A DNA stretch of 64,000 nucleotides from Escherichia coli (GTDB lineage: Bacteria > Pseudomonadota > Gammaproteobacteria > Enterobacterales > Enterobacteriaceae), in NCBI RefSeq assembly GCF_024298765.1, contig NZ_CP101210.1, one strand, 5' to 3'. Positions 59,222 to 59,296 of the stretch are shown piece after piece. Below the pieces are notes generated by a model. That model was given only the letters and a program-made list of their open reading frames with translations. It had not been told where the DNA came from and made no database searches. Position numbers and translations under genes: made by a program. Numbering within the stretch: position 1 is the stretch's first letter; each line of letters starts with the position of its first letter.

Positions 59222-59296
59222 TCAAGGGCGGTGATCGACAATCTTGTTGTCAATATTAAACCATTTTGAGGTCACACATATATGTAAGATATTCAT
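59222..59296 (-). CDS. tnaC: tna operon leader peptide (24 aa)
   Basis: Not in the ORF track. rc of 59222-59296 translates to MNILHICVTSKWFNIDNKIVDHRP-stop, with the single regulatory Trp at codon 12. Confidence 0.95.
   Translation of the reverse strand: MNILHICVTSKWFNIDNKIVDHRP

What the first reader, a model, noticed from the sequence alone, without database searches (positions are those of the whole stretch)
59222..59296. tnaC leader peptide, invisible to the ORF track
A 24-codon ORF on the minus strand encodes MNILHICVTSKWFNIDNKIVDHRP, the tryptophan-sensing ribosome-stalling leader peptide of the tna operon. It is followed by a roughly 220-nt spacer before tnaA. It is below the ORF-track size cutoff, so the regulatory system is only found by reading the sequence directly.
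Basis: seen in the sequence. Interest (0 to 1): 0.2.

Follow-up and report, generated by a model that had tools for sequence, protein, structure and literature searches.

The report
E. coli tnaC tryptophan-sensing leader peptide

Summary
The reverse complement of 59222-59296 translates to MNILHICVTSKWFNIDNKIVDHRP followed by TGA.

- **Family matches:** the peptide matches Pfam Tna_leader over its full length (71 bits, cut-off 25) and NCBIfam tnaC_leader (44 bits, cut-off 23.55).
- **Identity to known TnaC:** it is identical to the TnaC chain in a solved entry (6i0y) and to K-12 b3707. The DNA differs from K-12 only at two synonymous third positions.
- **Context:** the spacer to tnaA is exactly 220 nt. 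Intact tnaA (471 aa) and tnaB (415 aa) follow, and mnmE lies upstream.
- **Annotation:** the 551-bp leader region is 100% identical to many E. coli chromosomes in which RefSeq annotates tnaC at these exact coordinates.
- **Cis elements:** the CRP palindrome, ribosome-binding site, UGA stop and the 85-nt stop-proximal spacer that holds the Rho loading site in K-12 are all present.

The mechanism is inferred by identity to the characterised K-12 system. Tryptophan bound in the exit tunnel blocks RF2 release of TnaC-tRNAPro. The stalled ribosome hides the rut site, so Rho cannot terminate before tnaA.

Verdict: already known, low interest. Side observations are allelic patches in the promoter and distal spacer, an effector island at this site in other strains, and an ERIC-like insertion downstream of tnaB.

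The parts
59372..59387 (.). CRP (CAP) binding palindrome TGTGATTCGATTCACA upstream of the tna promoter
   Evidence: This is the only exact TGTGA-N6-TCACA in the 64-kb window, against 0.06 expected. It is identical in K-12 and in strains with a different upstream region, where homology to the window begins exactly at this site. Catabolite control of tna is stated in PMC8429421 and PMC5748587. Binding was not tested here.
59329..59361 (-). Promoter-like hexamers: TTCAGA (59361-59356), 18 bp, TATTAT (59337-59332); an overlapping alternative -10 is TATACT (59334-59329)
   Evidence: Found by the consensus scan, but the number of sites found is not above the shuffles, so this is positional inference only. 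The region lies within a patch of 8 differences from K-12 at 59313-59346. The transcription start was not determined. From my own knowledge of the K-12 literature it is about 24 nt upstream of the tnaC ATG, near 59320, which would give the 319-nt leader.
59307..59311 (-). Shine-Dalgarno GAGGA of tnaC, 10 nt before the ATG
   Evidence: Read from the sequence. Identical in K-12.
59222..59296 (-). tnaC coding sequence: 24 codons plus TGA, with W12 (TGG 59263-59261), D16, I19 and P24 (CCT 59227-59225)
   Evidence: The two differences from K-12 are synonymous (F13 TTT/TTC at 59258, K18 AAG/AAA at 59243).
59222..59230 (-). boxA-like CGCCCTTGA spanning the last two codons and the stop codon
   Evidence: The sequence was read directly and is identical in K-12. 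The assignment as 'boxA' rests on my own knowledge of Konan & Yanofsky 2000, which is cited in PMC8429421 and PMC3299997. That paper could not be read here.
59137..59221 (-). Stop-proximal 85 nt of the spacer, which holds the Rho utilisation (rut) site next to the stop codon
   Evidence: [quoted passage not shown] 40-nt windows spanning 59181-59250 have C/G of about 2 (13-15 C against 6-7 G). The exact rut boundaries were not available to me.
59183..59196 (-). AGCCAAACCGATTA, complementary to Spot 42 nt 50-64 (TAATCGGATTTGGCT) with a one-base bulge
   Evidence: The Spot 42 sequence came from K-12. The 15-nt tract replaced in Spot42-mut4 and its reverse complement AGCCAAATCCGATTA were computed. 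[quoted passage not shown]
59002..59136 (-). Distal spacer: the region of RNA polymerase pausing and Rho-dependent termination, part of the L4-binding spacer RNA, and the tnaA Shine-Dalgarno AAGGA (59013-59009)
   Evidence: The spacer's pause and termination role and L4 binding are described in PMC7186457. It has 7 differences from K-12 (59136, 59129, and 5 within 59053-59063). The fold of the whole leader is not more stable than shuffles (z = -1.02).
57586..59001 (-). tnaA, tryptophanase, 471 aa, intact
   Evidence: NCBIfam TIGR02617 scores 1007.8 bits (cut-off 825.8). Pfam Beta_elim_lyase matches. The start at 59001 matches the RefSeq annotation of identical DNA.
56247..57494 (-). tnaB, low-affinity tryptophan permease, 415 aa, intact
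   Evidence: NCBIfam NF007235 scores 925.7 bits over 1-415/415. Pfam Trp_Tyr_perm matches.

Best explanation
The ORF is the functional tnaC leader gene of an intact E. coli tnaCAB (tryptophanase) operon.

Shown here:
- The peptide, its stop codon and its ribosome-binding site are identical to K-12.
- The 85 nt after the stop codon are identical to K-12, and the 220-nt spacer length is the same.
- The CRP palindrome is identical to K-12.
- The downstream tnaA and tnaB genes are intact.

Inferred from the characterised K-12 system:
1. Transcription starts at a CRP-cAMP-dependent promoter.
2. A ribosome translates tnaC.
3. With little free L-tryptophan, RF2 releases the peptide at UGA and the ribosome leaves. 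Rho then loads on the C-rich rut site next to the stop codon and terminates RNA polymerase paused in the spacer, before tnaA.
4. With abundant tryptophan, one L-Trp molecule binds between nascent TnaC (W12, I15, D16) and the 23S rRNA in the exit tunnel. The peptidyl-transferase centre is silenced, so RF2 cannot hydrolyse TnaC-tRNAPro.
5. [quoted passage not shown]
6. Spot 42 and ribosomal protein L4 act additionally on the spacer RNA.
For: - Exact peptide and TGA stop.
- Full-length matches above the curated cut-offs to Pfam PF08053 and NCBIfam TIGR02616, an equivalog model.
- Identity to PDB 6i0y chain 7, and to residues 5-24 in 4uy8.
- Alignment to K-12 shows only 2 synonymous differences in tnaC and none in the SD or in the 85 nt after the stop.
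- Among four E. coli alleles, all 4 sense-codon differences are synonymous third positions.
- RefSeq assigns the same protein, WP_001364348.1, in the four non-K-12 genomes examined.
- tnaC plus the proximal spacer is found in 5399 of 5426 complete E. coli genomes.
- tnaA and tnaB are intact equivalog matches.
- There is a single perfect CRP palindrome at 59372-59387, and homology among divergent upstream contexts begins exactly there.
- The C-rich patch spans the stop codon.
- The mechanism and critical residues are described in PMC8429421, PMC10941005, PMC3299997 and PMC12360218. Spacer functions are described in PMC7186457 and PMC5748587.
Against: - Nothing contradicts this explanation, but no function was measured for this strain.
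- The promoter hexamers are not above chance in the scan, and the -10 region differs from K-12 at 8 positions. Promoter strength could therefore differ.
- The C/G bias of the first 78 nt after the stop is only at the 89th percentile of the window, so composition alone would not identify a rut site.
- The experimentally defined boxA and rut boundaries could not be read. Their presence is argued from identity to K-12.
Confidence: 0.97

Rival explanations
1. The real product is the longer 32-aa ORF that starts at the in-frame GTG at 59320. This is the form the mechanical ORF list reports. TnaC as stated would then be only its C-terminal part.
For: the ORF listing reports 59222..59320 (-), 32 aa, GTG start, because it takes the first start codon after a stop.
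Against: - No Shine-Dalgarno precedes the GTG, whereas GAGGA sits 10 nt before the ATG at 59296.
- The Pfam model is 24 positions long and is matched 1-24 by the ATG-initiated peptide.
- RefSeq and K-12 annotate the 24-codon form.
- The chain deposited in the structure entry is 24 residues long.
- From my own knowledge of the K-12 start site, the GTG lies at or next to the 5' end of the mRNA.
Confidence: 0.01
2. The ORF is a conserved relic in an operon that is no longer functional or no longer regulated in this strain, as happens in some E. coli lineages.
For: Natural inactivation occurs in related genomes.
- tnaB is frameshifted in a strain with an identical leader.
- IS1 truncates tnaC and removes tnaA in STEC388.
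- A few genomes lack the leader altogether.
- The window's promoter region carries 8 differences from K-12.
Against: - In the window tnaC, tnaA (471 aa) and tnaB (415 aa) are all full length, with equivalog-level scores.
- The CRP site, SD, stop codon and proximal spacer are unchanged.
- The same -10-region allele occurs in other lineages with intact operons, differing from the window there at one or two positions. It is therefore a common natural variant, not a lesion.
Confidence: 0.02
3. The leader acts mainly as a structured RNA (a riboswitch-like or sRNA element) and the short ORF is incidental.
For: The spacer RNA does bind L4 and Spot 42 according to PMC7186457 and PMC5748587, so RNA-level regulation exists on top of the peptide mechanism.
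Against: - No Rfam family matches the region even at E <= 1.
- The predicted fold of the 331-nt leader is not more stable than shuffles (z = -1.02).
- Variation inside tnaC is confined to synonymous sites, which indicates constraint on the peptide.
- Missense changes at W12, D16, I19 and P24 abolish induction in K-12 (PMC8429421, PMC10941005).
Confidence: 0.005

Closest known systems
Escherichia coli K-12 tnaC (b3707, NP_418163.1) and its tnaCAB leader region
   Same: - The 24-aa peptide, UGA stop and SD are identical.
- The spacer is 220 nt, and its first 85 nt are identical.
- The CRP palindrome is identical.
- The gene order mnmE - tnaC - tnaA - tnaB - mdtL is the same.
   Different: There are 25 differences in 551 bp (95.5% identity).
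- 2 synonymous changes in tnaC.
- 8 in the promoter and 5'-UTR patch at 59313-59346.
- 7 in the distal spacer, 5 of them clustered at 59053-59063.
- The remaining 8 lie upstream of the CRP site.
- A ~127-bp insertion follows tnaB.
TnaC in solved ribosome complexes (PDB 6i0y chain 7; 4uy8 chain 7; structures of PMC8429421)
   Same: The sequence is identical over 24/24 residues (6i0y) and 20/20 residues (4uy8). The structural description of L-Trp capture by W12, I15, D16 and A752:U2609, and of RF2 blockage, therefore applies directly.
   Different: None at the peptide level. The structures say nothing about this strain's promoter or spacer alleles.
SpeFL, the ornithine-sensing arrest peptide upstream of speF
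   Same: It follows the same logic: a leader peptide plus a small-molecule ligand in the exit tunnel blocks release-factor action at the stop codon. PMC12360218 describes speF as regulated by a similar uORF-dependent Rho-attenuation mechanism (PMC8429421, PMC12360218, bioRxiv 10.1101/604074).
   Different: The peptide family is unrelated, the ligand is ornithine, the release factor is RF1 rather than RF2, and the operon is different. The window's ORF is not a member of that family.

Membership tests
TnaC tryptophanase leader peptide (Pfam PF08053 / NCBIfam TIGR02616) | Sequence match to the curated family models above their cut-offs | tested here: met
   PF08053 scores 71.1 bits against a cut-off of 25, covering 1-24/24. 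TIGR02616 (equivalog) scores 44.3 bits against 23.55.
TnaC tryptophanase leader peptide (Pfam PF08053 / NCBIfam TIGR02616) | Critical residues W12, D16, I19 and P24 with the native spacing between W12 and the C-terminal Pro | tested here: met
   In MNILHICVTSKWFNIDNKIVDHRP, W is residue 12, D is 16, I is 19 and P is 24. The requirement is stated in PMC8429421, PMC10941005 and PMC3299997.
TnaC tryptophanase leader peptide (Pfam PF08053 / NCBIfam TIGR02616) | Pro codon followed directly by a stop codon (UGA, read by RF2, in E. coli) | tested here: met
   CCT TGA at 59227-59222. One natural E. coli allele has TAA instead, so UGA is typical rather than universal.
TnaC tryptophanase leader peptide (Pfam PF08053 / NCBIfam TIGR02616) | Located upstream of, and co-oriented with, a tryptophanase gene (tnaA), here also followed by tnaB | tested here: met
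   tnaA lies at 57586-59001 (TIGR02617, 1007.8 bits) and tnaB at 56247-57494 (NF007235, 925.7 bits), both on the same strand. The spacer is 220 nt.
tna-type Rho-dependent attenuator | Rho utilisation site immediately downstream of the tnaC stop codon, so that a stalled ribosome can mask it | tested here: inconclusive
   The sequence from tnaC through 85 nt past the stop is identical to K-12, where the site was defined (PMC8429421). There is a C-rich patch with C/G of about 2 across 59181-59250. Composition alone is not distinctive (89th percentile), and Rho binding cannot be tested here.
tna-type Rho-dependent attenuator | Tryptophan-dependent ribosome arrest and relief of termination | not testable with these tools
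   This needs toeprinting or reporter assays. It is inferred from peptide identity with the experimentally and structurally characterised TnaC (PMC8429421).
CRP-activated catabolic promoter | CRP consensus site upstream of the core promoter | tested here: met
   A perfect TGTGA-N6-TCACA at 59372-59387, the only one in the window against 0.06 expected. Its position relative to the transcription start was not determined here.

The most novel reading that the evidence does not exclude
The most novel reading still open is that the window's allele of the regulatory region changes the quantitative set point of tna expression (basal indole output, catabolite sensitivity, or L4 or sRNA control of tnaA translation) relative to K-12. 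The allele has 8 differences around the -10 hexamer and early 5'-UTR (59313-59346) and 5 clustered differences in the distal spacer (59053-59063). This would mean that E. coli lineages carry functionally distinct tna leader alleles. The peptide sensor itself is unchanged.
Probability: 0.15. Interest if true: 0.15.

Novelty: already known. Interest (0 to 1): 0.05.

Why it matters
It matters only as a sanity check. The first-stage reader can recognise a very short regulatory ORF from raw sequence, and the call is right to the base. The tnaC system is a textbook case of a nascent peptide that turns the ribosome into a small-molecule sensor coupled to Rho-dependent attenuation. It controls indole production, a signal relevant to biofilm, virulence and gut ecology. 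This copy adds no new biology. The peptide is invariant across the E. coli genomes examined, and the locus is routinely annotated.

Tried and rejected
- **Rfam.** Searching 58500-60000 at E <= 1 found nothing. There is no RNA family for this leader, so no RNA-level membership could be tested.
- **Leader fold.** The fold of the 331-nt leader gave z = -1.02, so there is no evidence of a stable structure. I dropped a tempting MFE pairing between tnaC codons 2-4 and the window-specific distal-spacer allele as probably chance.
- **Promoter and terminator scan.** The scan found no more sites than in shuffles, so the hexamers are reported only as positional candidates.
- **Spot 42 duplex.** Whole-length RNA duplex prediction of the leader against Spot 42 was uninformative: 38 of 300 shuffles scored at least as well. 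I relied instead on direct complementarity of the published 15-nt tract.
- **Primary papers.** The papers that define boxA, rut and RF2 inhibition (PMC94583, PMC55362) are not held. A second literature search for the 319-nt leader and boxA returned irrelevant papers. The transcription start and the boxA and rut boundaries therefore rest on my own knowledge plus identity to K-12.
- **Searches not run.** I ran no further search on cross-species TnaC homologues, because curated models, identity to a chain in a solved entry and the literature already settle membership.

Full report
**Observation.** Reading the minus strand directly shows:
- GAGGA (59311-59307) 10 nt before the ATG at 59296;
- the Pro24 codon CCT followed immediately by TGA (59227-59222);
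- a stretch of exactly 220 nt (59221-59002) up to the ATG of the next long ORF.

A 24-codon ORF is not evidence by itself, because 145 ORFs of at least 20 aa overlap 54000-64000. The evidence is the sequence. The mechanical ORF list does not show the gene at its default 60-aa cut-off. At 20 aa it shows a 32-aa GTG-extended version, 59222..59320.

**Identity.**
- The peptide matches Pfam PF08053 (Tna_leader) over all 24 model positions at 71.1 bits against a cut-off of 25.
- It matches the NCBIfam equivalog TIGR02616 (tnaC_leader) at 44.3 bits against 23.55.
- It is identical, residue for residue, to the 24-residue chain named 'Tryptophanase operon leader peptide' in PDB 6i0y, and to the 20-residue chain of 4uy8.
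- The downstream ORFs are tryptophanase TnaA (57586-59001, 471 aa, TIGR02617 1007.8 bits) and the permease TnaB (56247-57494, 415 aa, NF007235 925.7 bits over 1-415/415). The upstream gene is mnmE (59538-60902).
- The 551 bp from the mnmE stop codon to the start of tnaA are 100% identical to many E. coli chromosomes. 5419 of 5426 complete E. coli genomes have a match.
- In one identical record RefSeq annotates tnaC at locus 4245-4319, which converts to window 59296-59222, and tnaA from window 59001.

**Comparison with K-12 MG1655** (b3707). The 551-bp region is 95.5% identical, with 25 differences.
- Inside tnaC there are two, both synonymous third positions: F13 TTT/TTC at 59258 and K18 AAG/AAA at 59243.
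- The SD, the stop codon and the first 85 nt of the spacer (59221-59137) are identical.
- The CRP palindrome is also identical. TGTGATTCGATTCACA at 59372-59387 is the only exact TGTGA-N6-TCACA in the window, against 0.06 expected.
- Differences cluster in two patches: 8 in 59313-59346 (the -10 region and first bases of the 5'-UTR) and 5 in 59053-59063 (distal spacer).

**Variation across E. coli.** tnaC plus the proximal spacer is present in 5399 of 5426 genomes. In an alignment of four alleles, including one of the lowest-identity full-length matches listed (95.0%), all four sense-codon differences are synonymous (F13, I15, N17, K18). RefSeq gives the same protein accession, WP_001364348.1, in the four non-K-12 genomes examined. 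This pattern indicates constraint on the peptide rather than only on the RNA.

**Mechanism.**

What is shown here is the anatomy:
- a CRP site and candidate promoter hexamers (TTCAGA-18-TATTAT, not above chance);
- the SD and the 24-codon ORF with W12, D16, I19 and P24, ending in UGA;
- a C-rich patch across the stop codon (C/G about 2 in 40-nt windows spanning 59181-59250);
- a 220-nt spacer, then intact tnaA and tnaB.

What is inferred by identity to the characterised K-12 system is the function.
1. Transcription initiation is under catabolite control.
2. At low tryptophan the ribosome terminates at UGA and leaves.
3. [quoted passage not shown]
4. At high tryptophan a single L-Trp is wedged between the A752:U2609 pair of 23S rRNA and TnaC residues W12, I15 and D16.
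5. RF2 still recognises UGA, but its GGQ loop cannot engage. TnaC-tRNAPro is not hydrolysed, the ribosome stalls, the rut site is masked, and transcription reads through.

These steps are described in PMC8429421, PMC10941005, PMC3299997 and PMC12360218.

Two further layers act on the spacer RNA:
- Ribosomal protein L4 binds the 220-nt spacer and lowers TnaA translation (PMC7186457).
- Spot 42 pairs with the intergenic region (PMC5748587). The 15-nt tract replaced in the Spot42-mut4 allele (nt 50-64, TAATCGGATTTGGCT) is complementary, with one bulged base, to AGCCAAACCGATTA at 59196-59183. That site lies in the stretch identical to K-12.

The boxA-like CGCCCTTGA at 59230-59222 and a transcription start near 59320 (which would give a 319-nt leader) are from my own knowledge of the Yanofsky literature. 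I could not read those papers here.

**Rivals.**
- *The 32-aa GTG-initiated ORF.* This is an artefact of the ORF rule. It has no SD, and the family model, the annotations and the deposited TnaC chain all define the 24-residue product.
- *A decayed, non-functional operon.* This happens in some strains: tnaB is frameshifted in a strain with an identical leader, and IS1 truncates tnaC with loss of tnaA in STEC388. It is excluded at the sequence level for this window, where all three genes are intact.
- *A purely RNA-based element.* This is not supported. There is no Rfam match, the fold has z = -1.02, and variation is synonymous only.

**Comparison and novelty.** This is a member of the TnaC family, and specifically the E. 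coli allele. Every sequence-level defining feature tested was met. Only the biochemical behaviour is untestable here. It is already known and routinely annotated. The only open question of any novelty is whether the promoter and distal-spacer alleles alter quantitative regulation, which is a minor point.

**Noticed along the way.**
- In about 790 E. coli genomes the leader matches only from the CRP site onward. In two examples a ShET2/EspL2-family type III effector gene lies between mnmE and tnaC, and homology to the window resumes exactly at the CRP palindrome.
- The window carries a ~127-bp palindromic insertion between tnaB and mdtL that K-12 lacks. Its core matches what I recall as the ERIC/IRU core.
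- One natural allele uses TAA instead of TGA as the tnaC stop.

**Verdict.** The feature is already known; interest 0.05.

Noticed in passing
window 59389-59537; related loci L004:1378-4000 and L005:1374-4000: About 790 of 5419 E. coli genomes match the tna leader only from the CRP palindrome onward. In two examples a ~2.2-kb ShET2/EspL2-family type III secretion effector gene lies between mnmE and tnaC. It is on the opposite strand and is frameshifted in one of the two. It replaces the 149-bp intergenic stretch that the window and K-12 have, and homology resumes exactly at TGTGATTCGATTCACA. The window has the short form.
   Followed up: partly
window 59313-59346 and 59053-59063: Differences from K-12 are clustered, with 8 in the -10 and early 5'-UTR patch and 5 within 11 bp of the distal spacer. 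tnaC and the 85 nt after it are otherwise invariant. The window's -10-region allele (TATTATACT) is shared with the effector-island strains, not with K-12. The functional consequence is unknown.
   Followed up: partly
window 56111-56237: There is a ~127-bp insertion between tnaB and mdtL relative to K-12 (gap of 258 bp against 131 bp). It is an imperfect palindrome (arms 56111-56135 and 56213-56237) with the core GTGAATCCCCAGGAGCTTACTAAAGTAAGTGACTGGGGTGAACG at 56153-56196. From memory of the ERIC1R and ERIC2 primer sequences, this is an ERIC/IRU repeat element.
   Followed up: partly
locus L006:301-375 (E. coli L3Cip3): A natural tnaC allele ends in TAA instead of TGA and encodes the identical peptide. 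Because the K-12 mechanism involves RF2 at UGA, a UAA stop (read by RF1 and RF2) might shift basal or induced levels. This allele is not in the window.
   Followed up: no
locus L007:2501-4320 (E. coli STEC388); locus L001:6047-7295: Natural inactivation of the operon occurs elsewhere. An IS1A insertion after nt 36 of tnaC removes tnaA and truncates tnaB. tnaB is frameshifted in a strain whose leader is 100% identical to the window. One genome matches only the first 47 nt after mnmE (H50).
   Followed up: no
window 59494-59529: A 36-nt near-perfect palindrome, GCGAAGCCGCATTCTGAC-T-GTCAGATGCGGCTTCGC, begins 9 nt downstream of the mnmE stop codon. It is conserved in K-12 and is probably the mnmE terminator or a REP-like hairpin. 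The terminator scan did not call it.
   Followed up: no
window 1-1277 and 27645-27802: The Rfam gathering scan of the whole window found a 16S rRNA gene cut by the window start (minus strand) and the sRNA STnc410 (minus strand).
   Followed up: no
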